Shown here piece after piece: positions 138 through 58,987 of a stretch of DNA of 59,806 nt (its first letter is position 1; every line of letters begins with the position of its first letter). The stretch is from positions 1 through 59,806 of the IMG/VR virus record IMGVR_UViG_3300046171_000176. One strand, 5' to 3'. Below the pieces are notes generated by a model. It did not search any database and had not been told where the DNA came from. It saw only the letters and a program-made list of their open reading frames with translations. The translations under genes were made by a program, and so were the position numbers. Source of the DNA: a virus (Duplodnaviria > Caudoviricetes).

Positions 138-269
138 ATGATTTGGAAAGATAACTTAGGAAATGATTTAACTTGGGCAATTGGCCTACAAATGGACGGT
201 AAACTAAATAGAATTGAAGTGTTGGGTATAATTGAAACTCACAAACTAAATACGATACTAAATGGATAA
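138..269 (+). CDS. small early hypothetical protein (43 aa)
   Basis: Manual translation MIWKDNLGND...NTILNG*; A-rich upstream sequence, fits the gene packing. Confidence 0.55.
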   Translation: MIWKDNLGNDLTWAIGLQMDGKLNRIEVLGIIETHKLNTILNG

Positions 270-273
270 TATA
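241..273 (+). promoter_or_regulatory. early promoter-like motif, copy 1
   Basis: ACAAACTAAATACGA-tactaaat-GGATAATATA; ATG 6 nt downstream. Confidence 0.75.
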
Positions 274-3188: not shown

Positions 3189-3530
3189 ATGACAAATAAA
3201 GAAAAAGTGCTCGGCTATTACGGAGCAGAAATATTTACAGAGTGGACTAACAATGCTACATTTTATATGGAAACTTGCTATACAGCTGACAGTTACGATA
3301 TATACTGGTGCCACTCTGTTGACGATACAACACCTCAGCTAGACTATGACGTATATTATTACGCTGAAAATTGTATTGATGTATTTAAAGATGCTTTAAA
3401 ATCAGGAGAATTAATTTATATTGATGAAACATTGTATGATGATATATATGTTGATGATATTATTAAAGAAATAGCTGAAGCTATGCACCCTGAAGAAGTT
3501 GACGGTGAAATATTAGATACTACAGACTAA
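3189..3530 (+). CDS. acidic hypothetical protein
   Basis: ORF track. Confidence 0.65.
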   Translation: MTNKEKVLGYYGAEIFTEWTNNATFYMETCYTADSYDIYWCHSVDDTTPQLDYDVYYYAENCIDVFKDALKSGELIYIDETLYDDIYVDDIIKEIAEAMHPEEVDGEILDTTD

Positions 3531-3554
3531 ATACGAATACATATGGATAATATA
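3522..3554 (+). promoter_or_regulatory. early promoter-like motif, copy 5
   Basis: ACAGACTAAATACGA-atacatat-GGATAATATA; ATG 3 nt downstream. Confidence 0.75.
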
Positions 3555-3557
3555 AAT

Positions 3558-3836
3558 ATGAGCGAGGAAGAATATAAAGCATTATACAACCGAATCAAAA
3601 TAGATTTATATGATGAGTTTATTAATCCTGAAACCGCTAATTACGGAGCTGATGTCATACGACAAAAGGAAGCTAAGGAAGATATATATTCCGATATAGT
3701 TTCAGAAAAAGAAATTATATTAGACGAAATAAAACAATTAACTTCTGTAATGAAAAAGTATGAAGCGGATGAGGAGTATGAACACGCTGCGTTTATGAAA
3801 AAAAGAATTAATAACCTTAAAAAACGATTAAAATGA
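3558..3836 (+). CDS. protein with C-terminal UVR (UvrB/UvrC) coiled-coil motif
   Basis: MKKYEADEEYEHAAFMKKRINNLK fits the UVR motif; start moved from 3543 to the ATG after the promoter motif. Confidence 0.6.
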   Translation: MSEEEYKALYNRIKIDLYDEFINPETANYGADVIRQKEAKEDIYSDIVSEKEIILDEIKQLTSVMKKYEADEEYEHAAFMKKRINNLKKRLK

Positions 3837-4669
3837 AAAAAGCAATGCTTGCCCACAAATTTGATATAAGCAGAGTTGACTATTCTGAGCCTGTTTATAT
3901 TCAACCAAAGCTTGACGGCGTTAGATGTTTATTCACTGCTAATGGAGCATACTCACGCAACGGTAAAAAGTTTATGAACGTTAGACATATTGAAATGTCA
4001 CTTAAACCTTTATTTGACCATCAACCTAATATTGTACTTGACGGCGAATTATATAATCATAAACTTAAAAATGATTTTGAAAAAATTATATCACTAGTTA
4101 GAAAACAAAAACCTAGTGACGAAGATAGAATTAATGCACAACACTTAGTTCAATTTCATGTTTACGATTTCTTTGATGAATTACAATATGACTATTATGA
4201 AACTAGAATGCATAAGTTAAATGTATCTGATATATATGGACCTTGTGTTAAATATGTACCAACATACAGAGTGCATAAACACGAAGAAGCTTTGAACATG
4301 CACCATGACGCATTTCTTGCTAATGGTTACGAAGGCTCAATACTTAGACTAAATAGTTTATACAAACACGGTCGATCGTATGACTTAATGAAATTCAAAG
4401 ACTTCTCAGACTCTGAAGCTACCATTGTTAATTACGAAGAAGGTAAGGGCAAGCGATTTGGCACACTTGGTAAGTTTATAATGCAAGACGACGACGGCAA
4501 CATATTTGGTTGCCCTCCCGGTAAAGGTTATAATCATACCGACTTGAAACATATGTTGAAAAATATACATCAATATATGGGTCAGCGTGCTACATTTACG
4601 TACTTTCAACGAACTAACGCTGGTAGCTACAGACATCCATTATTTAAAGCATTAAGAAATTATGAGTAA
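3833..4669 (+). CDS. ATP-dependent DNA ligase
   Basis: Motif I QPKLDGVRC, LDGELY, GYEGSILR, LMKFK, YRHP. Confidence 0.92.
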   Translation: MKKAMLAHKFDISRVDYSEPVYIQPKLDGVRCLFTANGAYSRNGKKFMNVRHIEMSLKPLFDHQPNIVLDGELYNHKLKNDFEKIISLVRKQKPSDEDRINAQHLVQFHVYDFFDELQYDYYETRMHKLNVSDIYGPCVKYVPTYRVHKHEEALNMHHDAFLANGYEGSILRLNSLYKHGRSYDLMKFKDFSDSEATIVNYEEGKGKRFGTLGKFIMQDDDGNIFGCPPGKGYNHTDLKHMLKNIHQYMGQRATFTYFQRTNAGSYRHPLFKALRNYE

Positions 4670-4772
4670 ACTAATATGGAAACTATATAATGATAATATG
4701 ATTAGCGAAGAAGTTGCTCACATATTATTAGATAAACACTACAATAGATTAAACAATAAACGATATGACTAG
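4662..4772 (+). CDS. small hypothetical protein (36 aa)
   Basis: Manual translation MSKLIWKLYNDNMISEEVAH...; fills the gap and overlaps both neighbours. Confidence 0.5.
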   Translation: MSKLIWKLYNDNMISEEVAHILLDKHYNRLNNKRYD

Positions 4773-4959
4773 AGATATTATTATTCAACAAGTAATTGAA
4801 AAAATTAAATCACGTTCAGACGTCGGCTTTAAAAAGTACGGAGTTACACTAAAAGATGACGATCAACCTCTTGATATATGGCTAACACATATACAAGAAG
4901 AATTAATGGACGCGGTTAATTATATTGAAAAAGCAAAAGACGTATTAAACAATGGATAG
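4765..4959 (+). CDS. small all-alpha NTP-pyrophosphohydrolase-like phage protein
   Basis: RSDVGFKKYGVTL...WLTHIQEELMDAVNY (EExxD metal-binding-like pattern). Confidence 0.55.
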   Translation: MTRDIIIQQVIEKIKSRSDVGFKKYGVTLKDDDQPLDIWLTHIQEELMDAVNYIEKAKDVLNNG

Positions 4960-5025
4960 TATTTTAATTATATTAGCAATAGTTGCTATATTCTCAATAA
5001 GAGCACTATACAACGATTTATTTAA

Positions 5026-5583
5026 ATGAATATATTTTACTTACACGAAGACCCTCGGTTGGCGGCATCATATGTGTACGACAAGCATAAAGTGAAAATG
5101 ATTCTTGAATCAGCGCAGATGTTATGCACGGCACACCACGTGTTTGGTAATGGTAATAATGTTCCATACAAGCAAGCACACTTGAACCATCCGTCAACTA
5201 TCTGGGTCCGAGAAAATACTCATCATTATTATTGGTTATATGAACATATGTTAGCCTTAGGTGAAGAGTATACTAAACGATATGGCAAACGACATTTAAC
5301 AATTACTAAATGTGCAGAACCTTTGATTTATGCACCAATTGACATGCCGACATTGCCATATAAACATCCACCTCAGTGTATGCCTGACGAATATAAACGA
5401 CCACATGCTATACACGGTTACTGGAATTACTATATAAATGATAAATTTAAAATTTGTAATAAAAATGAAATACCATATAAAACGCCTCCTGTCCGTGTTA
5501 TGGACGATTACTTTAATGGCAACGGTAGCTCTAATATCATCTTTAGCCACTATGATATGGGCAGTAGACTTGCCACCGGATGA
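5026..5583 (+). CDS. pyrimidine-dimer DNA glycosylase family (DenV-like)
   Basis: MNIFYL...DKHKVKMILESAQMLCTAH, HLNHPSTIWVR, EYTKRYGKRH, PPQCMPDEYK. Confidence 0.8.
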   Translation: MNIFYLHEDPRLAASYVYDKHKVKMILESAQMLCTAHHVFGNGNNVPYKQAHLNHPSTIWVRENTHHYYWLYEHMLALGEEYTKRYGKRHLTITKCAEPLIYAPIDMPTLPYKHPPQCMPDEYKRPHAIHGYWNYYINDKFKICNKNEIPYKTPPVRVMDDYFNGNGSSNIIFSHYDMGSRLATG

Positions 5584-5758
5584 TTATACTTTGCTGAATA
5601 CCAGGTGGTTAAACTGGCCAGTACAAGAATATTATTCAAGAGAGAATATAGAACTATTAATTGAAGGACCAAAACAAATAACACTTAAAGATTATGAGCA
5701 AAACGAGACAACATATATTGCATCAATACAAAGTAAACTTATTCGGGTTAGCCGATAA
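5465..5758 (+). CDS. putative membrane protein
   Basis: N-terminal hydrophobic helix; overlaps the glycosylase 3' end; start uncertain. Confidence 0.45.
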   Translation: MKYHIKRLLSVLWTITLMATVALISSLATMIWAVDLPPDDYTLLNTRWLNWPVQEYYSRENIELLIEGPKQITLKDYEQNETTYIASIQSKLIRVSR

Positions 5759-5792
5759 AATTAAAAAGTTTAGAAAACCATATAAAAGAAAG

Positions 5793-5837
5793 GCGACGAA
5801 AGCTAATAAATAATAATTAGTAGGCAGCTAATGTCAC
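5793..5837. promoter_or_regulatory. 45-bp inverted-repeat site A (over HTH gene start)
   Basis: GCGACGAAAG-N25-CTAATGTCAC; same geometry as sites at 58751 and 59615. Confidence 0.55.
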
Positions 5838-6448
5838 AAAGAAACTTTAAATACTTGCATGATAAAAGAATTATATACGGGAGAACCCCAATCACGGATG
5901 TTCCTACCGAATCAACTGATATATATGATTATTATGAAAACGGCACCTATCAATGTTACGCTTTATTTAGAAGCAAAGCTAAAATTACTACATATAAAAG
6001 TTTAAAGTGGCATTTCTTAGTTATACAACATTTAAATGGTGATTTAAATATGAAAGAACTTAAAAGAGTGTTTGAATATATAGCCAATATTAAAAATAAC
6101 TTTGTTACATTTTCAATGTCACATGGTGCATTTGATAAATTGGTTAATGAAGTTTTTATAACTGACGCTGAACGTCCGCCCAAAAACAGAATTAGAAAAG
6201 TAATATTTAAGCCTAACAAAATACTCACACTATCTGAAAAGCTTAGTATTGTAGGCCAATTAATTGGTCGTAGCAAGAAAATAGTTGAAGAGGATATATA
6301 CCAGTGCATGTTAGATTTAAATGATAACAAACAAAAAATAACCATAATTAAGCTTGCTCAGCTTTTAAAATGTTCAACAAGAACAATATACAGAAACATG
6401 GGTAACCAACTTAAAATTGAAAAAGAATTACTAAATAAAGAAATATGA
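5831..6448 (+). CDS. DNA-binding protein with C-terminal HTH
   Basis: ITIIKLAQLLKCSTRTIYRNM helix-turn-helix. Confidence 0.75.
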   Translation: MSQRNFKYLHDKRIIYGRTPITDVPTESTDIYDYYENGTYQCYALFRSKAKITTYKSLKWHFLVIQHLNGDLNMKELKRVFEYIANIKNNFVTFSMSHGAFDKLVNEVFITDAERPPKNRIRKVIFKPNKILTLSEKLSIVGQLIGRSKKIVEEDIYQCMLDLNDNKQKITIIKLAQLLKCSTRTIYRNMGNQLKIEKELLNKEI

Positions 6449-7209
6449 GAAAATATAATATTCAAAATTATATTAGGTATAAAAACGACGTAGAAAAACA
6501 ATTACAAAGAGTTAAGAAGCCAGTTGACGGTGATTATACAGGATTAACAGATGAAGAAATTAAAATTAATTTTCTTCCGTTAGTTGTTACTCTTGCACAT
6601 AAACAATCTACGTCGGACCAAGCGTCAGGTGTACTGAGTATACTTGATTTGTTTCAAGAAGGCAATGCGGGTTTGTGCTCTGCTGTTAATAAATTGGATA
6701 GAACTATTTTAGCTGAGTCTGAAGATCAAGAAAAGACTTTGAAGTCATTCTTATCGAAAAGAATTAAAGGCGCGATACGGAGGTCTGTAGATATGCACAG
6801 AGGCGAGATTAGAATACCAGAACATAAACTAAATGAAATTAGACGCAATCCAAAAGATGAGAAAATGGTTGCTATGTTTTTTAATAGTGTATTTTCTAGC
6901 ATCGATGATAAACCTAATGATGATGATAACATGGCTTATCAAGTTGTAGATAAGTCTGAGCCATATAATATAGCTTTACTCAATACATATTTATTGTCAC
7001 TGATGAGAACACATTTAACACCAGCACAATATGATGTATTAAGAATGAGCTATGGACTAGACTGCGATAAACATTCTGCGAATGAAATTGCAGCTAAACT
7101 AGGAATCAATGTTGCGACTGCTCATGTACGTATTTCACAGATAAAACGGGATGCTATACATTGCCTTATCGAAAACGTAGATAGCTCGCAAGTGCTTGAT
7201 TACCTGTAA
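6445..7209 (+). CDS. sigma70-family RNA polymerase sigma factor
   Basis: Region 2: FLPLVVTLAHK...DLFQEGNAGL...SKRIKGAIRR; region 4 HTH: LTPAQYDVLRMSYGL...NEIAAKLGI. Confidence 0.88.
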   Translation: MRKYNIQNYIRYKNDVEKQLQRVKKPVDGDYTGLTDEEIKINFLPLVVTLAHKQSTSDQASGVLSILDLFQEGNAGLCSAVNKLDRTILAESEDQEKTLKSFLSKRIKGAIRRSVDMHRGEIRIPEHKLNEIRRNPKDEKMVAMFFNSVFSSIDDKPNDDDNMAYQVVDKSEPYNIALLNTYLLSLMRTHLTPAQYDVLRMSYGLDCDKHSANEIAAKLGINVATAHVRISQIKRDAIHCLIENVDSSQVLDYL

Positions 7210-7229: not shown

Positions 7230-7257
7230 TTAAGTTTAATTTTTAATATGTAATTAT
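7230..7257 (+). promoter_or_regulatory. middle/late promoter-like motif
   Basis: TTAA-N16-GTAATTAT, 6 nt before ATG 7264. Confidence 0.65.
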
Positions 7258-18205: not shown

Positions 18206-18233
18206 GTAATTACCTATTTTTTACGTCTTTTAA
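18206..18233 (-). promoter_or_regulatory. late promoter-like motif (lysis cassette); duplicated at 18913-18940
   Basis: TTAA-N16-GTAATTAC on the minus strand. Confidence 0.55.
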
Positions 18234-18889: not shown

Positions 18890-18920
18890 GATGTTAAGTT
18901 TGTATAATATATGTAATTAC

Positions 18921-19199
18921 CTATTTTTTACGTCTTTTAAGATTTTTTACTCTTCTAGGCTTACCAGCTGGTTGGCCTAATCTTTTCTTTTCTGCAATCT
19001 TTTTTCTTTTTTCAGATGCTGACATTTCACCTGATGTTTTTGGAGTTTTAGATGATATTCTTTTACTTGGTCTACAATATGGTGTGCCACGCTTTTCACC
19101 TGCACGTCTACCGCAAGGCTTACCAGTTCTGACATCTATCCACTTTTCTTTAAACCAACGTTTAAGTGAAGCGCCTTTTTTAGTTTTTCTTACTGCCAT
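18921..19199 (-). CDS. small basic virion-associated protein
   Basis: LKRWFKEKWIDV..GKPCGR...PYCRP, a K/R-rich aquatic-phage family. Confidence 0.7.
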   Translation of the reverse strand: MAVRKTKKGASLKRWFKEKWIDVRTGKPCGRRAGEKRGTPYCRPSKRISSKTPKTSGEMSASEKRKKIAEKKRLGQPAGKPRRVKNLKRRKK

Positions 19200-20019: not shown

Positions 20020-23000
20020 TTATTTTATTTTTCTTTTTACTATTGTTCTGCCTTTTCTTCTTTTTACTTGTTTTTCTTTTTTATCTTTTTCATTTTCTAT
20101 TCCTAATTCCCATGATCCCCATCCCATCAATAATGCCGTGCTTTGCCACCATTCTGCTTCATCACTCATTGCAGCTTCTATATTTTGTGCTTTTCTTAAT
20201 GCTCTATCTAATGGAAAATTAAATGTTGCTGATGCAGTTTGTGCTGCTGCTGACAATGCTGGATTATCTAATTTAGGTTCAAATACATTTTTGGGTGTAA
20301 CATATTTCATAGAATAACCTGCTCCTCTTAATCTTGTAAGTTTACCATACAATGGTGGAGATACTGTTAATGTTTTCCAAGCTGCTTGTTGGAAATCAGG
20401 GTTAGGTTTTTTAGATTGTTTAGCTATTTCCATTGCTACATTTTTTGCAGCTACAATAGCATTACCTGTCAAACCTGAACCTCTTAATAGTGAATCCGCC
20501 ATACCATTACCTATATCACTAGCTTTTGAAACTATTTTTTCGTCATCGTCATCATCGGCAAATGCTAATGCAAATACGGCTTTTTGCATAGCGTTAAATA
20601 TTAAGTTTTGTATTGTACTGTAATAAAGTATTTTACTTAATTTTTCTTTAGGATCGCCTCTACCATCAATAAGATCTTGGGCGTTTCTTTTTATAATTCT
20701 ATTATACTGCATTGGTGTATTAGCAAATGCTAACATAAATCTTCCTAAATTACCAGCTTGTTGTTCAGATATTCTATCTGGTCTACTAGATTGCTGTGTT
20801 TCTTCGGTTATAGCTTTAAAATCTAAAAATGCTTGTTTTTTAGCATCTGCTTCAGACATACCGTCTTTTATATATGTTTTAATCCTATTTCTATACATCG
20901 TTGCACCACCAGAAGCAATTGCAAAACTATCAGCCATTTTAGTAAGTATAAAACCTTTATTTAATAAATAACTAATTGTACCCTGCACACCACCTTTTTC
21001 TGCAGCTAATGCTAATTCGCTTTCATTAATATTTATTTTATTACCACCTCTTCTTTCCTGTAAGTAATCTGAATTAAATATTTCAACAAAATCAGCCCAA
21101 TACTGTGGTTGATTTGCAAACGCCTGTGCAGCTCTTAATGGATTATTGTCTTTATAGTTTATATAGTTTACATTTGAAATCATCTGTAATGCGGCAGATC
21201 TAGTATTTAAGAACATAATTGTTCCTACAGATCCGTTAACCCAATCATTCCAGGCTTGTAAATTTTTATCACCACCCCATTTTTTATTAGAGCCGTTTTT
21301 CATTCTTTGCAATGTAGCTTTTACATTCTTAACCCAGTTCTTACCGTATGCAGCCTCTAATTTAAACATGTTTTCTTTACTAAATAATATATCAACATTA
21401 TTTTGCCAAGCTTCTAAATGTTTACTTCTTTTATCTCCGTTTAATAATGACATTAAATCTATAGCAACATTACCACCCATCCAGCTTTCTTGTGGTTTTG
21501 GATAACCGTCGCCTTTAGTTATATTAATTAGCTCTGTAGCAAAAGCTAATAATTCTTTATCATTTTTAACTTCATTAACTAATTCTCTTACATCTTTTTT
21601 AGATAGCCCAGGTATTTCCATGCTTTGCCTTGTCCATGCATAAACTCTTACAGCTTGATCGTTCGTATAATCTCCACCTTTAGTAAACTTTTTTAATCTT
21701 TTAGGCACATTACTAAATTGCTTTTTTAATGCCATGAAGTCATTCATCATTGCTGACTTTTCTCTTGTTATACTTTCCATAGCTGCATTGTATGGATCAT
21801 ATAAATACTTTTTATAAAACTCTAATTGTTTTTCTCCCTTTTTGCCTTTAGCTAATGTTTTATGCATTAATCCACCAAAGTCTTCAGCTCCAGGTGGTAT
21901 AAAATAATCACCAAAAGATTTTCTAACTTTTGATCCTCTTGCTTCTGCCTTAGCTTGATTAAATACTTTTTCAGCACCTATACCTGTTGCACTTTCAAGA
22001 TATTGATTAAATTCTTTATTTATATCAACTTCAGCTGTTCTTGCTTTGCTAGCTTCTATGTTTGCTTTGTCTATCTTTTCAAGATTTTCTATAACTTCTT
22101 TATTACTTGGCTTTTTCTTTTTAGAAAAACTTAATTGTTCTTTTTTAGGTGCTAATTTATTTGCATTTAATGTGGCTTTACTAATATCAGGGTATCTTTC
22201 TTTTATATAAGTATCAATTGCATTTTTTGCCTGAACTGGCGTAATTTCATCTTTTATTTGTTCAAATATTAAATCAGATTGTTTTTCATATACATTTGCA
22301 TCAAATGATAATTTTGAAGGAACAACAACATTATATTTTTCAGCATGAGTTATACCTTCTTGCTTTATAGCATTAGGGTTTAATTTAACAACTTCATTAT
22401 ATAATCTTATATTAGAACTTGGTACTTCTTTCCAAGATATTTTTCCGTTAATAGCTTCTTGTATTTTTTGTTCTAAAAGCGGGTGTAGCTCTGATTTAGA
22501 TTTGTACTTTTTACCATTTAAATCATACGTTAAATCAACTTTATAATGACTATCTGTTCTGTTTTTTCCTTCACCACTTTTTAATGCAATTTGTATATAG
22601 TTATCAGCTAACCAATTTGCCATTGCTGTTTTAGTATCAGCATCTTTAATTTTAGAATATACACCAACTAATTTTGCAAATTGACCATGTTGCAATATGT
22701 GTTCTTCTAATATTTTTATTGCACCTTGTTCTAACCCAATTAGCTGAGCCATATTTCTTGTTGTAGCACCATTAGCATTTTGATTATAAACAACTAATCC
22801 AGTAGCTTTAGGATCAATAGCGTACATATCTGATAAAATATCTAATGCACCTTTAAAATTACTTTTAAAATTTTCCCTAATATTTAAATTCTTATTTAAA
22901 TTTTTTGTTTTTTGGCTTTTAATTACCATTGTCCAAGGAAATGCTTCTTCAACTTTTTTACCCTTAGTGGTTAAAGGTAATCCCAATTCTTCTTTTATTT

Positions 23001-26000
23001 TTTGTAAAGCAATTACTTCTAATAATTCGCCTTTATCTCTTGCTTGAATTGTTGCATTATCTAATGCCTGACTTACAAAAATACCATCTCGCATTCTTCT
23101 TATACTATTCCCGCCGGGGGCTAAATTACTTGGGGTCATAAAAAATGCAGAATTAGGTACTTGATCAATCATTTTTACATAGCTTCTGAAAATTTTACCT
23201 ATTTCTTGTACATTATCTTTATTTATTTTTCCTCCAAATTCATTTGCAACTTGTTCATTTATTTTAAGCTTTTTAACTTTACTAAACATTACATCAGCTT
23301 TACCCGCTGCTAAATCTTGTTTAGCTTCTAATGATAAATCACTTTCACTTCTTACAATTTCATTGGTAATTAATTTACCCGTAAGATTCATTATACCTTT
23401 TATTCTTTGTGCTTCAGGCGATCTTGGCGATAAACCTTCTCTTAGTTTTCCATCAACTATACCTAAACCTTCTAAAAACTGCTGCCTATTAATTGAATTA
23501 AGCTTATACGGACTCAAACCGGCCCCTCTGGTTAATCTTTCTTGCTTTGTATAAAAAACATCTAGCAATGATTTTGGAACTCCTGTGGATGTACCTAATA
23601 ATCTTTCGCTTGCAGCTTCAACAACAGCACCTTTAGGTAATAATCTTAATAATTTATCTACATTTTTATTTATATTTCTTGCAGCATTGTTTAAATCACC
23701 TTTATTTAAGTTGGCTTTTGGATCTGTAACTTTTTTAGCTGGTACTTCAAATATTTCAGCCGTAGTTTCTGGTGATAAATCTTTTAGCCTTTTAAATGTT
23801 AAATCTTTTTTAGGAACATTTTTAAGGCCTTTCATTATTTTAGATTTTGCAGCTTCAATATCTTTTAATAATGAACTTGGTTTTATTTTTTTACTTACTG
23901 GTTTTTCAGTAACAGTTTCAGTTTCTTGCGCTGTAACTCCTTTTGCTTCAGTTACATCAACTGTAAATTCTTCACCTAATATTTTATTAGACGCTTCAAT
24001 CATTCTTGAAGGTAAAAATTTATTTACATATGCAGCTAATGGGACACCAGAATCAGGATTATAGCTTCTTATTAAACCAAGTATACCTCTATCAGAATAT
24101 TTTATTTCACTTGTTAAATCTTCTTTATTAAAATTAGGTGCTTCTCTTCTTTTATCTACTAGCTTATTAATTATAGGATTAAATGCTTCAATAATATCAA
24201 ATGATCCGTCAACACCTTTTTCATTGTAGATATTTTGTACATTGTCTGATGCTTGTTTTGAAAGTGCTACTTCAGCTAGGCCAACTTTACCAATACCTTT
24301 AGCTAAACCTTTTGATAATCGACCTTTGTTTATACTATTTGTATATTGACGTGAGAAATTAAATACATCTTGGGCATTATTAAATTCAATCTTTTTATAA
24401 GGCGTAAACCTTCTTATCATTTCAGTTAACCAATCTTTTAACTTAGTTGCCCAATCTTGTTTGTATTTTATACTACCGTCCTGACTCAAATCAGAAAATA
24501 CACTAAAAAATTCTTTAGCATGCTCAGAAGGATCATATCTTTTATTTAACGCGTCTTGCAATAATTGTTTTTCAGTAGTTGGCAATAATTCTAAAAAATT
24601 ATTTTGTAATTGTTGTAATTGCTCAGGATTAAGTGTTTTTAATTTTTCAGCTATAACGCCATGCATTACTTCATGACCACCAACGTTTAAATTACTTGTT
24701 TCAGCAGCAACTTGTTCGTTAATATATATTTTATTACCTGATATAAAACCTCCAACTTCACCTAATTCAGATTTTTGTTCATCATTTAATTTAATGCCAT
24801 CTGCTTCAATACCTGCTTTAAAATCTTGTGTGTTTTGAAATGCTAAAGTTTCTAATCCTATGCTCTCTGCAGATTTTGCAAATTCAGTTGATTTTTTAAC
24901 ATCGCCTTCTTTATTTATTTGTACAAGCCTATTATTTATTTCTTCTAGCCTACTGGTATCTGCCTCTAAAAAATTTTCATCAAGATTTTTTATATTATTT
25001 AATATTTTTTGTTTTTCAACAATCAAATCAACAGCTTCAATTCTGCTTTCGTTTTTAATATACGTAGGTATTTTCAAGTTAGCATCCTCAATATTATTAA
25101 TAGCTTGAATAGTTTCATCAGCTTCTTCTCTAGTTATTTCGTTGTTTTTAACCTTTATTTCTAATTCTTTTTTAGTATTTGATAATATAGGTGTTATACG
25201 TTTAGGGTCAAATTTTGAACTTATTTCTTTAACAGTTTGAACAGTTTCTCTAGCTGTTGCTCTTGTTACATTACCAGCAAATGGCAAAACAGCACCAACA
25301 AAACCACCGTCCTGAGCGCTCTTTATAACGTTATTTAAATCAATATATTTAAATATATCATCCTGAGCCGCGCCTGCACCTAATTGTGAAACTATTGTTT
25401 GAAAACCTTCTGTTAAATATTCAGTAAAACCACCTTTTAATATACCTTTCCCCCCTTCTTTAAGTCCTCCCGATTTTATATATTTTTTTAATCCATCTTT
25501 TACAATACTTCTAACAATATCTTTGCCTCCTGCAGAACCAAGAACACCTTTAACTATTTGTGATGCTCCATAGGACTCTAGCAAACTTGATATGACTGCT
25601 TGTGTTGTTGCTAATCCTCTTTCTCCATTTCCTGCCTCAACAGCTTTTAAAATATTTTCAGCAGTTGCAGGTTTATCACCTAAACTATTATAAACGTTTT
25701 CAAAGTAAGCACTACCAAATTCCTGCATATATACTCCCAAACCACCCGTAAAAGCCGCAAAACCTAATTGAGGTATTTGTTTAGCTATTAAACCTAAGCC
25801 ATCTTTTGAAAAATAATCTACATCTTTAGGTAATTGTTTATAAAAAGATAAATCTATTTCTCTTTGCTCTATTCCTTTTAAATTAGCTAAAAATTTAGAT
25901 TTAGCATCTGTTATTTCTTGATCATAATATCCAAGCGCTTCTTCTTTTGAACCTTTTTTTGTGCCAATTTTAAAACCTTCTTTTTGTGAAAAAGTTCCAC

Positions 26001-26880
26001 CGTAGCTTACCTCTGCGTTGTCTCTTGAATTTTCTATAGATTCTCTTTCTTTTTTTAATCTAATAATATTTTCTCCAATATTTGCAGTAGCACCTTTTTT
26101 GATTGCTAAAGTTATATCTTTAAATCCAGATTTTAAAAATTCTCCAAAATATGTTTTTTCATCTAACCCTAATCTTTCTCTATTATACTTTACATTTCTT
26201 TCTTCTAATTCTGCATCTAAAGCATTTTGAAATTTATTTATACGGTCTTCAAATGTTTTATTACTAGATATTTTATTAGATAAAAAAGCATTTATTCTTT
26301 TTACATATTCTTCGTTAGCATTTTTTACACCTTCTTCAGTAGTTAAATCAAATTCTTTTTTAACATCATTTAAAATTTTATCTGTAAAAGCTTTATTAAA
26401 TTTTAATATATCAGAAGATAAATCATTTAAATAACTGTCTGAGTTTATTGCTTTTTGTATTATTGAACTATATTTTTCTTGATCAATATTTATTTCTCTA
26501 CCAGGTTGAAAATCATCATCTAATATTGAAGATTTTATTTTTGATCTTGCAATTTTGCTTGTTAATGCTGGTGCATAAGGGTCTACTTTTGAATTTAATA
26601 AAAAATCAATTCTTGTTTTTGAATTTCTATTTTCTTCATATGATTTATACGATTCACCATAATTTATTTTATCTTCTTGTGGCACCAAAGAACCAGGATC
26701 CGAAGTGGAATCCATATCGGGTGCTGCAGTTTCCTCCACAGTCGCACCCTGAACTGCGGGAGTTTGCTTTCCCGGATCTCCATTTTTCATAATTTGAGCA
26801 CCGGGAGAAATAGAAACAAATTTATCTACTTCATTTTCAGGAACATCGTATTCCTTATTATTATATAAAACTTTAATCAT
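20020..26880 (-). CDS. giant internal virion/ejection polyprotein with HExxH zincin and embedded sigma region-2-like domain
   Basis: Follows tail and small ejection genes; HEVMH at aa 736-740; sigma-r2-like segment at aa ~893-968; hydrophobic Gly/Ala-rich segments. Confidence 0.75.
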   Translation of the reverse strand: MIKVLYNNKEYDVPENEVDKFVSISPGAQIMKNGDPGKQTPAVQGATVEETAAPDMDSTSDPGSLVPQEDKINYGESYKSYEENRNSKTRIDFLLNSKVDPYAPALTSKIARSKIKSSILDDDFQPGREINIDQEKYSSIIQKAINSDSYLNDLSSDILKFNKAFTDKILNDVKKEFDLTTEEGVKNANEEYVKRINAFLSNKISSNKTFEDRINKFQNALDAELEERNVKYNRERLGLDEKTYFGEFLKSGFKDITLAIKKGATANIGENIIRLKKERESIENSRDNAEVSYGGTFSQKEGFKIGTKKGSKEEALGYYDQEITDAKSKFLANLKGIEQREIDLSFYKQLPKDVDYFSKDGLGLIAKQIPQLGFAAFTGGLGVYMQEFGSAYFENVYNSLGDKPATAENILKAVEAGNGERGLATTQAVISSLLESYGASQIVKGVLGSAGGKDIVRSIVKDGLKKYIKSGGLKEGGKGILKGGFTEYLTEGFQTIVSQLGAGAAQDDIFKYIDLNNVIKSAQDGGFVGAVLPFAGNVTRATARETVQTVKEISSKFDPKRITPILSNTKKELEIKVKNNEITREEADETIQAINNIEDANLKIPTYIKNESRIEAVDLIVEKQKILNNIKNLDENFLEADTSRLEEINNRLVQINKEGDVKKSTEFAKSAESIGLETLAFQNTQDFKAGIEADGIKLNDEQKSELGEVGGFISGNKIYINEQVAAETSNLNVGGHEVMHGVIAEKLKTLNPEQLQQLQNNFLELLPTTEKQLLQDALNKRYDPSEHAKEFFSVFSDLSQDGSIKYKQDWATKLKDWLTEMIRRFTPYKKIEFNNAQDVFNFSRQYTNSINKGRLSKGLAKGIGKVGLAEVALSKQASDNVQNIYNEKGVDGSFDIIEAFNPIINKLVDKRREAPNFNKEDLTSEIKYSDRGILGLIRSYNPDSGVPLAAYVNKFLPSRMIEASNKILGEEFTVDVTEAKGVTAQETETVTEKPVSKKIKPSSLLKDIEAAKSKIMKGLKNVPKKDLTFKRLKDLSPETTAEIFEVPAKKVTDPKANLNKGDLNNAARNINKNVDKLLRLLPKGAVVEAASERLLGTSTGVPKSLLDVFYTKQERLTRGAGLSPYKLNSINRQQFLEGLGIVDGKLREGLSPRSPEAQRIKGIMNLTGKLITNEIVRSESDLSLEAKQDLAAGKADVMFSKVKKLKINEQVANEFGGKINKDNVQEIGKIFRSYVKMIDQVPNSAFFMTPSNLAPGGNSIRRMRDGIFVSQALDNATIQARDKGELLEVIALQKIKEELGLPLTTKGKKVEEAFPWTMVIKSQKTKNLNKNLNIRENFKSNFKGALDILSDMYAIDPKATGLVVYNQNANGATTRNMAQLIGLEQGAIKILEEHILQHGQFAKLVGVYSKIKDADTKTAMANWLADNYIQIALKSGEGKNRTDSHYKVDLTYDLNGKKYKSKSELHPLLEQKIQEAINGKISWKEVPSSNIRLYNEVVKLNPNAIKQEGITHAEKYNVVVPSKLSFDANVYEKQSDLIFEQIKDEITPVQAKNAIDTYIKERYPDISKATLNANKLAPKKEQLSFSKKKKPSNKEVIENLEKIDKANIEASKARTAEVDINKEFNQYLESATGIGAEKVFNQAKAEARGSKVRKSFGDYFIPPGAEDFGGLMHKTLAKGKKGEKQLEFYKKYLYDPYNAAMESITREKSAMMNDFMALKKQFSNVPKRLKKFTKGGDYTNDQAVRVYAWTRQSMEIPGLSKKDVRELVNEVKNDKELLAFATELINITKGDGYPKPQESWMGGNVAIDLMSLLNGDKRSKHLEAWQNNVDILFSKENMFKLEAAYGKNWVKNVKATLQRMKNGSNKKWGGDKNLQAWNDWVNGSVGTIMFLNTRSAALQMISNVNYINYKDNNPLRAAQAFANQPQYWADFVEIFNSDYLQERRGGNKININESELALAAEKGGVQGTISYLLNKGFILTKMADSFAIASGGATMYRNRIKTYIKDGMSEADAKKQAFLDFKAITEETQQSSRPDRISEQQAGNLGRFMLAFANTPMQYNRIIKRNAQDLIDGRGDPKEKLSKILYYSTIQNLIFNAMQKAVFALAFADDDDDEKIVSKASDIGNGMADSLLRGSGLTGNAIVAAKNVAMEIAKQSKKPNPDFQQAAWKTLTVSPPLYGKLTRLRGAGYSMKYVTPKNVFEPKLDNPALSAAAQTASATFNFPLDRALRKAQNIEAAMSDEAEWWQSTALLMGWGSWELGIENEKDKKEKQVKRRKGRTIVKRKIK

Positions 26881-30582: not shown

Positions 30583-30610
30583 ATTATTACATTTTTTATT
30601 GTTATTTTAA
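30583..30610 (-). promoter_or_regulatory. late promoter-like motif
   Basis: TTAA-N16-GTAATAAT, 7 nt before ATG 30575. Confidence 0.65.
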
Positions 30611-55895: not shown

Positions 55896-56149
55896 TCGAC
55901 TAGTACTATATCACCAAGTTTTAAAACATAATATAGTTTATCTTTCCATTCAATCCCATGTCCAGCATGTTTATCGTAATGTACTATATCATCTTTGTTA
56001 AGTATATCTGCCAAATGACCAGCAGAAATTACTTTGCCTTTTAAATATCTAACGTCTTTATTTTGATCTTCTGTTAGTTCAAGACCACCAACTTTTTTTG
56101 GCGCTTCTTTTATTTTTTCTATTACAACGTAGTAATTAATTGCTTTCAT
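55892..56149 (-). CDS. groES: co-chaperonin GroES
   Basis: VVIEKI...GGLEL...GKVISAG...DIV; adjacent to groEL. Confidence 0.8.
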   Translation of the reverse strand: MKAINYYVVIEKIKEAPKKVGGLELTEDQNKDVRYLKGKVISAGHLADILNKDDIVHYDKHAGHGIEWKDKLYYVLKLGDIVLVE

Positions 56150-57698
56150 AGTCCCTTACATTATTAATTACACAATCTGCTGAAAATATGGTGTTTGCAA
56201 CGCTAACTGCATTTTTTAATGCCGTTTTAGTAACAAGCACTGGATCTATAATGCCAGCCTCAACCATATTAATTTTTTTATTTTTTACAACATCAATACC
56301 TATACCAGCTTTACTATATTCTTTATATTCTAATGCTGCATTATCTAATATTGCCGCGTATGGTGCTTTTATAGCTTGTAATAAAATAGCTTCACCATCA
56401 TTCTCAGGTGCTATAGAAAATGATGCATCTAATAATGCAACACCACCACCTGAAACAATACCTTCCTGTAAAGCTGCTTTAGTAGCATATATAGCGTCTT
56501 CAACTCTATCTTTCTTTTCCTTCATTTCAACTTTAGAGTTTGCACCAACCTTAATCATTGCTACTTGTCCATTTAGCATTGCTAATCTTTCTTGTAGCTT
56601 CTTTTTGAAGAATGGATTTTTTTCTTCTTTGATTTTATTTTCAACCACTTCGATTCTCTCGTTGAGAGCAACGCCTTGGTCAATTGTTTGTAACACTGTA
56701 TGTTTATCATCCGTAACTGACTGAATAGCCTGTCCTAAAACATCGGGTTGTATTAAATCAAGATCATCACCTAATTCTTCATTTATGACTTTAGCTCCGG
56801 TAAGTATCGCAAGGTCTTCAATTGTATCTTGTTTTGTTGGACCGAATCCAGGCAAATCCACAACATTTACTTTTATATTACCTTTAACTTTATTAGCAAG
56901 TAATGCTGCCAAAGGTTGTTGTTCTACGCCCGCAACGATTAACAAACTTCTTTTCGATTTTATAACAAACTCCAATACGCTTTGTATTTTACGGATATTA
57001 GGTATTGGCGAAGATACTATCAGTACGTACGGATTATCTAGTACTGCCTTACCTTTATCCTTGTCTGTGATAAAATGTGGCGATTTGAGTCCGCAATTTA
57101 TTCTAGTGCCCTCAACAAATTTAACGTGAGTGTCATGGGTCTCGGACTCTTCCATAAGGACGACACCATCCTTTCCTACTTTTGAATAGGCTTGCGATAT
57201 GATCTTCCCGAGAGCTTTATCATTATTACAACTAATTTCAGCTACGCTTTCGAGCATATCGTCTTTTACTTGAACTGCATTGTCATCAAGATATTGAATT
57301 ACTTTATTCATACCTGATATTATACCTTCTTTAATAGGTCTTACAGTTTGTGCATATTTTTTATCATTTGCTAAATGCAATAATGAATGAGCAAGGACGG
57401 TAGCCGTTGTGGTACCATCACCTGCTTCTTTCACTGTATTTTTAGCTGCTTCTTTAATTAGTGTTGCACCAATGTTTTCGACCGGGTCGATTAAGACTAC
57501 GCTTTCCGCCACGGTTACACCATCTTTTGTGATCACCGGTCTTCCGAGTGCGTCTTCATATATAACGCATTTACCTGATGCACCTAATGTAGATTTAACT
57601 GCACTTGTTAATTTATCTACACCAGCCATTATTTTTTCTCTAGCACCTTTCCCGAAGGAAAGATTCTTAACTATCTCACTTGGGTTATTATATTCCAT
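56136..57698 (-). CDS. groEL: chaperonin GroEL
   Basis: ITKDGVTVA, AGDGTTTATVLA, KLQERLA, EKKDRVEDA, GIIDP. Confidence 0.95.
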   Translation of the reverse strand: MEYNNPSEIVKNLSFGKGAREKIMAGVDKLTSAVKSTLGASGKCVIYEDALGRPVITKDGVTVAESVVLIDPVENIGATLIKEAAKNTVKEAGDGTTTATVLAHSLLHLANDKKYAQTVRPIKEGIISGMNKVIQYLDDNAVQVKDDMLESVAEISCNNDKALGKIISQAYSKVGKDGVVLMEESETHDTHVKFVEGTRINCGLKSPHFITDKDKGKAVLDNPYVLIVSSPIPNIRKIQSVLEFVIKSKRSLLIVAGVEQQPLAALLANKVKGNIKVNVVDLPGFGPTKQDTIEDLAILTGAKVINEELGDDLDLIQPDVLGQAIQSVTDDKHTVLQTIDQGVALNERIEVVENKIKEEKNPFFKKKLQERLAMLNGQVAMIKVGANSKVEMKEKKDRVEDAIYATKAALQEGIVSGGGVALLDASFSIAPENDGEAILLQAIKAPYAAILDNAALEYKEYSKAGIGIDVVKNKKINMVEAGIIDPVLVTKTALKNAVSVANTIFSADCVINNVRDYESN

Positions 57699-58052: not shown

Positions 58053-58080
58053 ATAATCACGTGGTTGTTAAATTCTTTAA
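58053..58080 (-). promoter_or_regulatory. late promoter-like motif (chaperonin operon)
   Basis: TTAA-N16-GTGATTAT. Confidence 0.6.
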
Positions 58081-58954: not shown

Positions 58955-58987
58955 ACAAACTAAATACGGAGTTTCCAGGATAATATA
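58955..58987 (+). promoter_or_regulatory. early promoter-like motif, copy 6
   Basis: ACAAACTAAATACGG-agtttcca-GGATAATATA(AGTGTAA). Confidence 0.75.

What the first reader, a model, noticed from the sequence alone, without database searches (positions are those of the whole stretch)
23977..24204. Sigma-factor region-2-like domain hidden inside the giant virion/ejection protein: a candidate injected sigma factor
Seen: aa ~893-968 of the 2286-aa protein read SFDIIEAFNPIINKLVDKRR..FNKEDLTSE..RGILGLIRSYNPDSGVPLAAYVNKFLPSRMIEASNKI. By eye this follows the sigma70 region 2.1-2.4 pattern (LIEANLRLVVSIAKKY..EDLIQEGNIGL..FDP.RG.KFSTYA.WWIR.AI). A possible HTH (LSPETTAEIFEVPAKKV) lies downstream. Established: podovirus ejection proteins enter the cell with the DNA; crAss-like phi14:2 uses this route to deliver a virion RNA polymerase. 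No RNAP DxDxD catalytic motif is visible here. Inference: this phage injects a sigma factor that redirects host core RNAP to its non-host early promoters, and later switches to the stand-alone sigma at 6445.
Basis: partly seen in the sequence, partly recalled or inferred. Interest (0 to 1): 0.93.

Follow-up and report, generated by a model that had tools for sequence, protein, structure and literature searches.

The report
Sigma-like domain inside giant phage protein
A giant protein in the particle-building gene block of an uncultured marine phage carries a real but very divergent copy of the part of bacterial sigma factors that grips RNA polymerase, so the phage may deliver its own transcription starter, though delivery and function are untested.

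Summary
Residues 893-968 of the 2286-aa ORF (window 20020-26880, minus strand) read as quoted. They lie in a conserved ~110-aa helical domain (aa 868-979) that looks like sigma-70 domain 2.

For the sigma-2 reading:
- A template-free AF2 model (pLDDT 87) has sigma factors as its best non-self matches in PDB (44 of 47 printed rows, but best E only 0.12) and in BFVD.
- hhalign aligns it in register with regions 2.1-2.3 (P 2.3e-4; 0 of 32 reversed or shuffled controls come near).
- ESM features point to Sigma70_r2.

Against it: Pfam, PHROGs and PDB sequence searches see nothing.

The proposed downstream HTH/sigma-4 is not supported. Residues 993-1200 fold as a compact domain with no sigma match.

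The protein is a zincin-bearing, polyvalent-type giant protein at the end of the structural operon, with hundreds of metagenomic relatives and none in 50,697 phage records. Packaging and injection are inferred only.

The phage group shares a near-invariant, non-canonical early promoter (7 copies here, 0 expected) and a stand-alone sigma (20 of 20 relatives). The promoter does not co-vary with the sigma-like domain, so which factor reads it stays open.

Other first readers of this scan noted a sigma-like segment in related giant proteins of other genomes.

Verdict: real sigma-2-like domain (~0.85); injected initiation factor plausible (~0.3-0.4).

The parts
20020..26880 (-). Giant ORF, 2286 aa (P0001). 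It is the last large gene of the structural (portal, terminase, tail fibre) operon and has a polyvalent-type architecture.
   Evidence: ORF. Neighbours hit PHROGs portal, terminase, tail fibre and virion structural proteins. The ORF itself has 0 Pfam and 0 PHROG families.
24481..24783 (-). Zincin-like metallopeptidase motif region (aa 700-800): HEVMH at aa 736-740 (window 24661-24675) plus Glu790.
   Evidence: Motif found. H736, E737 and E790 are at least 90% conserved and H740 is invariant in 35 full-length homologues. No Pfam match.
24256..24270 (-). N-terminal junction motif VALSK (aa 871-875) just before the sigma-like domain.
   Evidence: About half of 35 homologues read [FLM]SK[EQT]A here; the others read RSEEA or KSEEA. 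A cleavage role is inferred only.
23944..24279 (-). Sigma-70 domain-2-like helical domain (d1, aa 868-979). It contains the finding's segment, aa 893-968 (window 23977-24204).
   Evidence: AF2 pLDDT mostly above 90. Foldseek PDB and BFVD best non-self hits are sigma factors. hhalign to regions 2.1-2.3 with P 0.0012 and 2.3e-4, with controls. ESM features point to Sigma70_r2.
23905..23964 (-). Acidic, predicted disordered linker (aa 973-992) between d1 and d2.
   Evidence: pLDDT below 50 for fragment residues 124-143.
23281..23904 (-). Compact alpha/beta domain of unknown fold (d2, aa 993-1200).
   Evidence: AF2 pLDDT 90.5, pTM 0.88. No Foldseek PDB match (best E 1.1). ESM nearest 0.80. hhalign to sigma P 0.031 and 0.17.
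23278..23289 (-). C-terminal junction motif MFSK (aa 1198-1201) closing the d1-d2 module.
   Evidence: x-[FLYAE]-S stands at this aligned place in 32 of 35 homologues, and [MLQVK]FS in 27 of 35. A cleavage role is inferred only.
20101..22023 (-). Highly conserved C-terminal domain (aa 1620-2260) of unknown family, the core shared by the whole giant-protein family.
   Evidence: 39-52% identity in 55 of 58 loci hit by tblastn. At least 585 viral contigs carry it. No PDB or PHROG match. No likeness to phi14:2 gp66 or gp65.
6445..7209 (+). Stand-alone phage sigma factor (254 aa, sigma-2 plus sigma-4), at the end of the early region.
   Evidence: phrog_351 sigma factor 3e-19. Pfam Sigma70_r4 and Sigma70_r2 hits just under cut-off. 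Found in 20 of 20 related records at 55-85% identity; split by a TAA in G007, and only residues 1-210 matched in G012.
241..272 (+). Early promoter-like bipartite motif ACARAnTAAAYACG-N9-GGATAATAT, copy 1 of 7. The other copies are at 607-638, 1017-1048, 1755-1786, 3522-3553, 58955-58986 and 59748-59779, all on the plus strand.
   Evidence: 7 matches against 0.00 expected, 0 of 100 shuffles. The same motif occurs in co-oriented arrays upstream of the sigma gene in relatives.

Best explanation
Residues 868-979 are a genuine, very divergent homologue of sigma-70 domain 2, the part of sigma that clamps onto the beta' clamp helices and opens the -10 element. The domain is a cargo module of a giant zincin-bearing polyvalent protein. 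That protein is encoded at the end of the structural operon and is therefore probably packaged in the virion and ejected with the DNA.

Proposed mechanism:
1. The d1-d2 module (aa ~872-1200) is bracketed by conserved xFSK junctions. It either stays in the polyprotein or is released by the protein's own HExxH peptidase.
2. It docks on host core RNAP through the sigma-2-like domain.
3. It acts as a minimal, sigma-2-only initiation factor (like T4 gp55 in principle) at the phage's conserved non-canonical early promoters (ACAAAC..ACG-N9-kGATAATATA).
4. Those promoters drive the small early genes and, last, the stand-alone sigma gene. That sigma then serves the second promoter class (TTAA-N16-GTRATWAY).

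Shown here: the fold, the profile homology, the conservation, the gene order and the promoter classes. Inferred: packaging and ejection, cleavage, RNAP binding, and which factor reads which promoter.
For: Fold:
- The template-free AF2 model of aa 850-1200 has pLDDT 87.
- In Foldseek/PDB, 44 of the 47 printed rows are sigma factors or sigma-containing initiation complexes. One is the SigE N-terminal domain (74 columns, rmsd 2.6, TM 0.65 on the target, prob 0.98) and another a SigA domain-2 entry (prob 0.96).
- In BFVD, after two members of its own family, ranks 3-6 are phage sigma factors (E 0.011-0.098). 16 of 50 rows are named sigma; 18 rows carry no name.

Sequence profile:
- hhalign gives P 0.0012 and P 2.3e-4, score 31.9, against at most 17.6 in 32 controls.
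- In that alignment the family consensus matches RpoD at D403, I405, G408, G411, F419(Y), G424, F427(L), Y430 and W434(F).
- ESM features: 21 of 30 named hits are the Sigma70_r2 set, score 0.94.

Constraint:
- The segment is among the most conserved parts of the protein: 46% mean column identity over 47 sequences, with many invariant residues.
- 446-502 relatives exist, nearly all giant proteins.

Docking: complex prediction of d1 with F. johnsoniae beta' 200-380 gave 'weak support'.
- Median ipSAE 0.51 against a best control of 0.00.
- The runs agree in at least 67% of contacts and the partner pLDDT is at least 68.
- The mark was reached by 58 of 80 solved complexes and 2 of 110 mismatched pairs, but scores of 0.60 or less by only 7 of those 80 and by both mismatches.
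- The pass may reflect likeness to solved sigma-beta' complexes.

Context:
- The gene closes the portal, terminase and tail operon.
- Homologues carry swappable cargo domains: Zeta-toxin/AAA kinase, LysM, and a HAD-like DFDDT motif.
- The conserved HExxH...E matches the polyvalent-protein theme of zincin processing and 'jump-starting transcription' (PMC5512222, passages read).

Need for a factor:
- 7 early-motif copies against 0 expected.
- No TTG-N19-TAnnTTTG promoters (0 against 2.3 expected), and TAnnTTTG is not enriched (100 against 104).
- No phage RNAP was found. The giant protein has no Pfam family at E<=1, and its sigma-like and C-terminal segments show no likeness to phi14:2 gp66/gp65.
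Against: - No sequence-family tool recognises the domain: Pfam 0 families; none of the 25 most-matched of 34 Pfam families among 47 members is a sigma family; PF04542 in six frames finds nothing in this gene at E<=10; PDB phmmer and profile searches find no sigma.
- All Foldseek E-values to sigma are weak (0.12 or more in PDB, 0.011 or more in BFVD). Small helical bundles match easily.
- The hhalign probability is only 19-44%.
- There is no sigma-4 or HTH: d2 has no known fold match.
- No data show the protein in virions. No relative exists in 50,697 phage records, so no proteomics can be borrowed.
- The early promoter is nearly invariant in 15 of 20 related genomes, although their giant proteins carry very different d1 types. 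A3-type d1 is found in only 28 of 75 and d2 in 44 of 75. In G012 (L176) only a 24-column remnant of d1 was found.
- A specificity subunit would be expected to co-vary with its promoter or stay constant with it. The stand-alone sigma (20 of 20 relatives, 55-85% identity) fits that better.
- The promoter geometry (upstream element 5-6 bp further out than a -35) fits no known sigma.
- The host is unknown. The Bacteroidota promoter consensus and the RpoD functional residues are recalled, not tested.
Confidence: 0.38

Rival explanations
1. The domain is sigma-2-like and targets host RNAP, but not as a promoter-specificity factor. It could occupy the beta' clamp helices as a sigma competitor and so shut off the host. 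It could instead tether RNAP to the ejection complex or the incoming DNA end, so that transcription helps pull the genome in. The conserved early promoters would then be read by another factor: host holoenzyme or the stand-alone phage sigma.
For: - The fold and profile evidence is the same as for the best explanation, as is the weak complex score of 0.51 against 0.00.
- There is no sigma-4 or other recognised DNA-binding part.
- The promoter is invariant while d1 types diverge strongly. That pattern fits a protein-binding module tracking host RNAP or evading defence.
- The stand-alone sigma is present in 20 of 20 relatives.
- The downstream element kGATAATAT resembles an extended -10, which a host-type sigma could use. 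This reading is by eye and from recalled consensus.
Against: - If the stand-alone sigma read the early promoters, its own gene, which lies downstream of the last early promoter copy (3522 to 6445), would need another start signal. None was found.
- The Tyr at the RpoD Y430 position and the Phe at W434 are kept in the main type. This hints that the DNA-melting surface is retained.
Confidence: 0.27
2. The giant protein is itself a novel virion RNA polymerase. Its catalytic part would lie in the unexplained 640-aa C-terminal domain or the aa 1200-1620 region, and the sigma-2-like domain would act in cis as its promoter-melting or specificity module.
For: - Precedents exist for injected RNAPs inside giant zincin-bearing proteins: N4-like (PMC5512222, passages) and crAss-like phi14:2 gp66, annotated 'Catalytic RNA polymerase subunit' from MS/MS in its record.
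- The C-terminal domain is extremely conserved, with many invariant D, R, N and Q residues, and no known family matches it.
- The 33-bp early motif is long and invariant, like single-subunit RNAP promoters.
Against: - There is no conserved DxDxD or [DN]xDGD motif.
- No RNAP Pfam family hits P0001 or appears in the precomputed Pfam column of the 120 listed homologues.
- hhalign of the C-terminal domain against phi14:2 gp66 and gp65 gives P 0.17 and 0.088.
- A sigma-2 domain is only known to work with multisubunit core RNAP.
- The phage keeps a stand-alone sigma, so it uses host core RNAP anyway.
Confidence: 0.1
3. The resemblance is convergent or generic. Residues 868-979 would be a helical bundle with another role, such as a structural or chaperone-like part of an internal virion protein, unrelated to transcription.
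For: - All sequence-family searches are negative.
- Foldseek E-values are never below 0.01 for any sigma.
- The ESM 'shared features' count of 144 is below the 170 typical of true family members.
- Helical domains give many false structural matches.
Against: - Three methods of different kinds agree on the same family and the same register.
- 44 of 47 top PDB rows come from one protein family.
- Reversed and shuffled controls fail.
- Sigma hallmark positions (D-x-I-x-x-G-x-x-G, [FY]-x-P, G-x-x-[FL]-x-x-Y) are conserved.
Confidence: 0.13
4. The domain is a working sigma-like factor but is not delivered by the virion. The giant protein would be made late and act inside the producing cell, for example in late transcription or packaging-coupled regulation, or would be processed there.
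For: Packaging is inferred only from gene position and size. No proteomic evidence is available.
Against: - Its place at the end of the structural operon, its size, the zincin and the swappable enzymatic cargo domains are the hallmarks of injected polyvalent proteins.
- A late-made factor for early promoters makes sense only if it is carried into the next cell.
Confidence: 0.08

Closest known systems
Sigma-70 family, domain sigma-2 (regions 1.2-2.4; Pfam Sigma70_r2), including phage-encoded stand-alone sigmas such as this phage's own gene at 6445-7209
   Same: - The predicted helical fold and helix order are the same.
- The profile alignment is in register with regions 2.1-2.3.
- Hallmark Gly, Asp and aromatic positions are conserved.
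   Different: - It falls below every sequence-family threshold.
- It is embedded at aa 868-979 of a 2286-aa structural-module protein rather than being a free 20-70 kDa protein.
- It has no sigma-3 or sigma-4; a domain of unknown fold follows instead.
- It is not especially close to the phage's own sigma (hhalign P 0.13).
T4 gp55 late sigma (a sigma-2-only factor that works with co-factors; recalled from the literature, not fetched or compared here)
   Same: It shows that a phage sigma-2-like domain alone, without sigma-4, can direct core RNAP to a short -10-type element.
   Different: - gp55 is a free, newly made late protein, whereas this domain is part of a probable virion protein and would act at time zero.
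- No sequence or structure comparison with gp55 was run.
Virion-delivered RNA polymerases: N4 gp50 (T7-like) and crAss-like phi14:2 gp66
   Same: - Both are giant proteins encoded with the structural genes and delivered with the DNA to start early transcription from phage-specific promoters.
- The N4-type proteins also carry zincin domains (PMC5512222 passages; phi14:2 record).
   Different: - No polymerase motif or likeness was found.
- The transcription-related part here is a specificity-subunit fold, which implies use of the host's core enzyme.
Polyvalent proteins of phages and conjugative elements (Iyer et al. 2017, PMC5512222)
   Same: - It is a multidomain giant protein with a zincin-like HExxH...E peptidase.
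- Homologues carry variable enzymatic cargo domains.
- Delivery on invasion is predicted, in line with the theme of jump-starting transcription.
   Different: - The word 'sigma' does not occur in that paper's main text (0 occurrences). Its supplementary domain lists could not be seen.
- No Pfam polyvalent-protein (LPD) family hits this protein.
T4 Alt (an injected ADP-ribosyltransferase that retargets host RNAP; as described in PMC5512222)
   Same: It is a virion-carried protein that acts on host RNAP at the moment of infection.
   Different: Alt is an enzyme that modifies RNAP, whereas this would be a stoichiometric subunit mimic.

Membership tests
Sigma-70 family (sigma-2 domain, Pfam PF04542 Sigma70_r2) | Sequence match to the family model above its curated threshold | tested here: not met
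   Pfam finds 0 families at E<=1 for the whole protein and for aa 850-1200. Of the 34 Pfam families matched by any of 47 homologous segments, none of the 25 shown is a sigma family. PF04542 in six frames hits only 6574-6786 at E<=10.
Sigma-70 family (sigma-2 domain, Pfam PF04542 Sigma70_r2) | Sigma-2 helical fold with the order 2.1 helix, loop, 2.2 helix, loop, long 2.3-2.4 helix | tested here: met
Sigma-70 family (sigma-2 domain, Pfam PF04542 Sigma70_r2) | Profile-profile homology in register with regions 2.1-2.3 | tested here: met
   hhalign gives P 0.0012 and prob 19%. The domain alone gives P 2.3e-4, prob 44% and score 31.9. Two reversed and 30 shuffled controls score at most 17.6.
Sigma-70 family (sigma-2 domain, Pfam PF04542 Sigma70_r2) | Binding of region 2.2 to the beta' clamp helices of core RNAP | tested here: inconclusive
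   Complex prediction gave 'weak support': 0.51 against a best control of 0.00. Scores of 0.60 or less were reached by 7 of 80 solved complexes and by both of the 2 of 110 mismatched pairs that passed. The pass may be likeness from memory. The beta' came from a stand-in host, and its range was chosen from recalled E. coli numbering.
Sigma-70 family (sigma-2 domain, Pfam PF04542 Sigma70_r2) | Aromatic and polar residues of regions 2.3-2.4 that melt and read the -10 element | tested here: inconclusive
   In the hhalign register, Tyr stands at RpoD Y430, Phe at W434, Leu at F427, but Lys at W433. The roles of these residues are recalled. Other d1 types differ strongly here.
Sigma-70 family (whole factor) | Sigma-4 helix-turn-helix domain for the -35 element and the beta flap | tested here: not met
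   The d2 model (pLDDT 90.5) has no sigma or HTH match (best E 1.1, prob 0.04). hhalign gives P 0.031 and 0.17. ESM nearest is 0.80.
Sigma-70 family (whole factor) | Promoter-specific initiation with core RNAP | not testable with these tools
   This needs in vitro transcription. Only promoter motifs could be mapped.
Polyvalent proteins (Iyer et al. 2017) | Giant multidomain protein with a zincin-like HExxH...E peptidase and variable cargo domains among homologues | tested here: met
   HEVMH stands at aa 736 with E790, conserved in at least 90% of 35 homologues. Homologues carry PF06414/PF13671 kinase, PF01476 LysM and a HAD-like DFDDT domain. This is at motif level only; there is no Pfam peptidase hit.
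Polyvalent proteins (Iyer et al. 2017) | Packaged in the virion and delivered into the host | not testable with these tools
   Only gene position supports this. No relative exists in cultured-phage records.
Virion RNA polymerases (crAss-like gp66 type, N4 gp50 type) | Catalytic metal-binding motif (DxDGD in a double-psi barrel, or T7-like palm motifs) and likeness to known members | tested here: not met
   There is no conserved DxDxD or [DN]xDGD. hhalign of the C-terminal domain to gp66 and gp65 gives P 0.17 and 0.088, and of the sigma-like module to gp66 P 0.027. Pfam is negative. T7/N4-type sequences were not compared directly, and the C-terminal domain was not folded.

The most novel reading that the evidence does not exclude
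This widespread group of uncultured marine ~60-kb phages carries a sigma-2-only initiation factor inside a self-processing ejection polyprotein. At the moment of DNA entry the factor captures host core RNAP and fires a phage-specific, non-canonical early promoter class, before any phage gene is expressed. This would be a third way to start a phage infection, beside host-sigma promoters and injected RNA polymerases. The fast-diverging sigma-2 types would then reflect adaptation to different hosts' RNAP or to host defences.
Probability: 0.3. Interest if true: 0.9.

Novelty: new variant of a known kind. Interest (0 to 1): 0.72.

Why it matters
Phages are known to start early transcription in two ways. 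Some use host holoenzyme on host-like promoters. Others inject their own RNA polymerase (N4-like, crAss-like, phiKZ-like). A sigma-like subunit delivered in the virion would be a new and cheaper solution: bring only the specificity part and use the host's catalytic core.

In three full-text searches I found no paper that describes this. The polyvalent-protein survey does not mention sigma in its main text.

The case is directly testable with one recombinant fragment, core RNAP and a 33-bp promoter that is conserved across a large phage group abundant in marine metagenomes. It would also add a transcription-hijacking cargo type to polyvalent proteins. It would give a natural series of very divergent sigma-2 domains that may all bind the same RNAP surface.

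Even if the domain proves to be only an RNAP-docking or inhibitory module, it would still be a new kind of injected effector.

Tried and rejected
Searches and tests that gave nothing useful:
- Pfam and PHROGs on the whole protein, on aa 850-1200 and on 47 or 27 homologous segments found nothing relevant.
- PDB sequence searches with the single fragment and with profiles A3 and A7 found no sigma. The full-length profile A1 gave only coiled-coil noise such as eIF3a and Mediator.
- tblastn of the fragment and of the whole protein against 50,697 phage records gave no match.
- For d2, Foldseek PDB, ESM Atlas and hhalign to sigma regions 3-4 gave no support for an HTH or sigma-4.
- hhalign of the sigma-like and C-terminal alignments against phi14:2 gp66 and gp65 gave nothing significant.

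Covariation test:
- I looked for co-variation between the d1/d2 type and the early promoter in 20 related records.
- The promoter hardly varies, so the test cannot assign a reader. It counts, if anything, against a simple specificity role.
- In 5 of the 20 records (G006, G013, G015, G017, G020) fewer than two clear promoter copies were seen.
- In three of these (G006, G013, G020) the stretch fetched rested on my assumption that the linear record wraps round, so absence there means little.

Other attempts:
- Single-sequence hhalign of other d1 types to sigma was not significant (P 0.016 or more). Family-level comparisons linked five variant families to d1 at P 5.5e-5 or better, with L126 at 0.0014 and L113 at 0.008. 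The L128/L119/L151, L158 and L174 types stayed unresolved.
- A search for a stand-alone form of the module found 19 proteins of 183-583 aa, most on contigs of 1-3 kb and so probably fragments. Whether free-standing forms exist is open.
- One RNA-library run held 27% of the sampled words of the early region, but only as short low-depth contigs. They show neither starts nor strand, so nothing is claimed from them.
- My first spacing for the early-motif pattern was wrong and gave 0 hits. It was corrected.
- Hydropathy shows no clear membrane helix (maximum 1.17), so I do not claim a membrane segment.

Papers seen:
- PMC7824862 and PMC5512222: passages by 'find' only.
- All other papers: search listings and abstract starts only.
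- No supplements were seen. The supplementary domain tables of PMC5512222 might list this domain under another name.

Full report
**1. What is there**

The finding lies on the minus strand. The plus strand of 23977-24204 is full of stops. The only long ORF across it is 20020-26880 (minus), 2286 aa.

The window is a nearly complete virus record: 59,806 bases, CheckV completeness 93%. The giant gene is the last large gene of a minus-strand operon. That operon holds a tail-fibre-like protein, terminase, portal and several 'virion structural protein' PHROGs. The plus-strand arm holds replication and nucleotide-metabolism genes and a stand-alone sigma factor at 6445-7209.

By terminase the nearest cultured phages infect Flavobacteriia, mostly at 44% identity (68 of 87 matching records are Flavobacterium phages and 15 Cellulophaga phages). 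Neither the giant protein nor its aa 850-1200 part has any tblastn match in 50,697 phage records.

**2. Is the sigma likeness real?**

Sequence-family tools say nothing:
- Pfam finds 0 families at E<=1 and PHROGs 0.
- The Sigma70_r2 model searched in six frames finds only the stand-alone sigma gene.
- None of the 25 most-matched of 34 Pfam families among 47 homologous segments is a sigma family.
- PDB sequence searches find no sigma.

(a) Structure.
- Residues 850-1200 are strongly conserved: 446 proteins in the all-length representative search and 502 in the word-indexed search, almost all of 1000-3300 aa.
- An AF2 model built from 50 such sequences without templates has pLDDT 87. It shows two well-defined parts separated by a disordered acidic linker.
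- Foldseek against the PDB gives no significant E-value (best 0.12). Yet 44 of the 47 printed rows are sigma factors or sigma-bearing initiation complexes.
- The domain-sized hits are good: SigE N-terminal domain with 74 columns, rmsd 2.6 A, target TM 0.65 and prob 0.98; a SigA domain-2 entry with prob 0.96.
- Against BFVD, the first two hits are pieces of the same giant-protein family. Ranks 3-6 are phage sigma factors (E 0.011-0.098), and 16 of 50 rows are named sigma.

(b) Profile comparison.
- hhalign of a trimmed 47-sequence alignment (A3) was run against an alignment of E. coli RpoD, RpoS, RpoH, FliA and RpoE plus three copies of the phage sigma (A4).
- With the first domain alone, P is 2.3e-4 and the score 31.9. 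Two reversed controls score 11, and 30 column-shuffled controls reach 17.6 at most.
- In this register the family consensus has Asp at RpoD D403, Ile at I405, Gly at G408 and G411, Tyr at F419, Gly at G424, Leu at F427, Tyr at Y430 and Phe at W434. The functional meaning of these RpoD positions is recalled, not tested.

(c) Language-model features. For aa 868-979, 21 of the 30 nearest named clusters are the viral Sigma70_r2 set, top score 0.94. The shared-feature count (144) is low.

I conclude that aa 868-979 is a real, very divergent sigma-2-like domain (about 0.85).

**3. What is not there**

- Modelled alone (47 sequences) this part is a compact alpha/beta domain, pLDDT 90.5 and pTM 0.88.
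- It has no PDB match (best E 1.1, prob 0.04; no sigma among the 23 rows) and no ESM neighbour (0.80).
- Its hhalign scores to sigma regions 3-4 are not significant (P 0.031 and 0.17).

So the module is sigma-2 plus a domain of unknown fold, not a whole sigma.

No polymerase signature was found:
- The only DxDxD string is a variable acidic run at aa 2109.
- No such motif appears among the conserved columns of 35 full-length homologues.
- The conserved C-terminal 640 aa match nothing in PDB or PHROGs.
- hhalign to the crAss-like virion RNAP gp66 and its partner gp65 is at noise level (P 0.17 and 0.088).

A novel polymerase there is not excluded.

**4. Architecture and family**

Three parts are conserved in full-length homologues:
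- a zincin motif (H736, E737, H740, E790);
- the d1-d2 module (aa 878-1200);
- the C-terminal domain (aa 1624-2253), which occurs in at least 585 viral contigs.

Homologues insert other cargo between these parts: Zeta-toxin/AAA kinases, LysM and a HAD-like DFDDT domain. This is the polyvalent-protein pattern of Iyer et al. 2017. Those authors predict zincin self-processing and 'jump-starting transcription'. Their main text never mentions sigma (passages read).

The module ends with a conserved [ML]FS[KR] in 27-32 of 35 sequences. About half begin with [FLM]SK. The same junction idea was noted by first readers on this and other genomes. Cleavage at these sites is only inferred.

d1 and d2 are mosaic. 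Among 75 full-length giants chosen by their C-terminal domain, the main d1 type is HMM-detectable in 28 and d2 in 44. The same position holds other sequence types. Five of those families are remote homologues of d1 by hhalign (P 4e-8 to 5.5e-5), two more score weakly (P 0.0014 and 0.008), and three types stay unresolved.

**5. Promoters and the second sigma**

- The bipartite motif ACARAnTAAAYACG-N9-GGATAATAT occurs 7 times, all on the plus strand, in front of the small early genes. The chance expectation is 0.00.
- The same motif, with k at the first position of the downstream element, forms co-oriented arrays upstream of the stand-alone sigma gene. At least two clear copies occur in 15 of 20 related records.
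- That sigma gene is present in all 20 relatives at 55-85% identity.
- A second motif, TTAA-N16-GTRATWAY, starts right after the sigma gene and precedes late operons. It occurs 5 times against 0.45 expected. In relatives it gives 12 hits on the gene strand in 11 of 80 loci and 0 on the other strand.
- Bacteroidota-type housekeeping promoters (consensus recalled) are absent: 0 against 2.3 expected, and the -7 element is not enriched.

This layout fits a cascade: delivered factor, then early genes and the sigma gene, then middle and late genes.

The same data also cut the other way. The early promoter is almost invariant in genomes whose giant proteins have quite different d1 types, or barely detectable ones (G012/L176). 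There is thus no co-variation to tie d1 to the promoter.

**6. RNAP docking**

One complex prediction paired d1 (with its alignment) with residues 200-380 of Flavobacterium johnsoniae beta'. It gave 'weak support':
- The median score was 0.51 against a best control of 0.00.
- The runs agreed in at least 67% of contacts, and the partner pLDDT was at least 68.
- The mark was reached by 58 of 80 solved complexes and 2 of 110 mismatched pairs. Scores of 0.60 or less were reached by only 7 of those 80 and by both mismatches.

The pass may merely reflect likeness to solved sigma-beta' complexes. The host is a stand-in, and I did not check that the range holds the clamp helices.

**7. Verdict**

- Best reading (0.38): a sigma-2-like cargo domain of a probably ejected, self-processing polyvalent protein. 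It docks on host core RNAP and acts as a minimal initiation factor for the phage-specific early promoters.
- Close rival (0.27): the same docking, but for sigma competition or RNAP tethering, with another reader of the promoters.
- Lesser rivals: a novel vRNAP with an in-cis sigma-like module (0.10); a generic helical bundle (0.13); a factor not delivered by the virion (0.08).

**8. Novelty**

Three full-text searches found no report of a virion-borne sigma. The phrase search returned only reovirus sigma proteins. I class the finding as a new variant of known kinds: the sigma family and polyvalent ejection proteins. Its interest is high if the function holds.

Other first readers of this scan had already noted a sigma-like segment in related giant proteins of other genomes. 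Those notes are unchecked and are not counted as evidence.

Noticed in passing
window 241-272, 607-638, 1017-1048, 1755-1786, 3522-3553, 58955-58986, 59748-59779 (+); also L089-L094 and stretches of G007-G020: The 33-bp early bipartite motif is almost invariant across a large group of ~60-kb marine phages. At least two clear copies occur in 15 of 20 records examined. The upstream element sits 5-6 bp further out than a canonical -35, and the downstream element kGATAATATA resembles an extended -10.
   Followed up: partly
window 7230-7257 (+), 18206-18233, 18913-18940, 30583-30610, 58053-58080 (-): A second promoter-like class, TTAA-N16-GTRATWAY, occurs 5 times against 0.45 expected. It begins right after the stand-alone sigma gene. 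In relatives it is found only on the gene strand (12 hits in 11 of 80 loci, 0 on the other strand).
   Followed up: partly
window 20101-22023 (-): The 640-aa C-terminal domain of the giant protein has very many invariant Asn, Gln, Arg and Asp residues and is present in at least 585 viral contigs. It has no match in Pfam, PHROGs, PDB sequences or phi14:2 gp65/gp66. It is probably the family's core function and was not folded here.
   Followed up: partly
L097-L176 (giant genes of related contigs): The sigma-2-like domain and the following domain are exchanged or diverge independently. Some relatives have d1 without d2, d2 with another d1 type, or neither detectable. Several d1 types are only remote homologues of each other, which looks like fast diversification of one cargo slot.
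   Followed up: partly
window 23278-23289 and 24256-24270 (-); alignment A6: Conserved [ML]FS[KR] and [FLM]SK junction motifs bracket the module downstream of a conserved HExxH...E zincin. They are candidate self-cleavage sites that would release a ~325-aa sigma-sized fragment.
   Followed up: partly
homologues in alignments A2 and A6 (not in this window's protein): Many relatives insert a HAD-phosphatase-like domain (DFDDTLA ... LTARP ... FADDA) and an EH..P motif region between d2 and the C-terminal domain. Some carry Zeta-toxin/AAA kinase or LysM Pfam domains.
   Followed up: no
window 56136-57698 (-): A phage-encoded GroEL-like chaperonin of 520 aa (phrog_5725, E 4e-134).
   Followed up: no
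G007:C1:65743-66500 (related record): The stand-alone sigma gene of one relative is matched in two pieces, with a TAA inside the first match. In another relative (G012) only residues 1-210 are matched.
   Followed up: no
The 120 best listed are at least 84% identical, and several come from Tara-type marine data. This phage group therefore seems very abundant in the sea.
   Followed up: no
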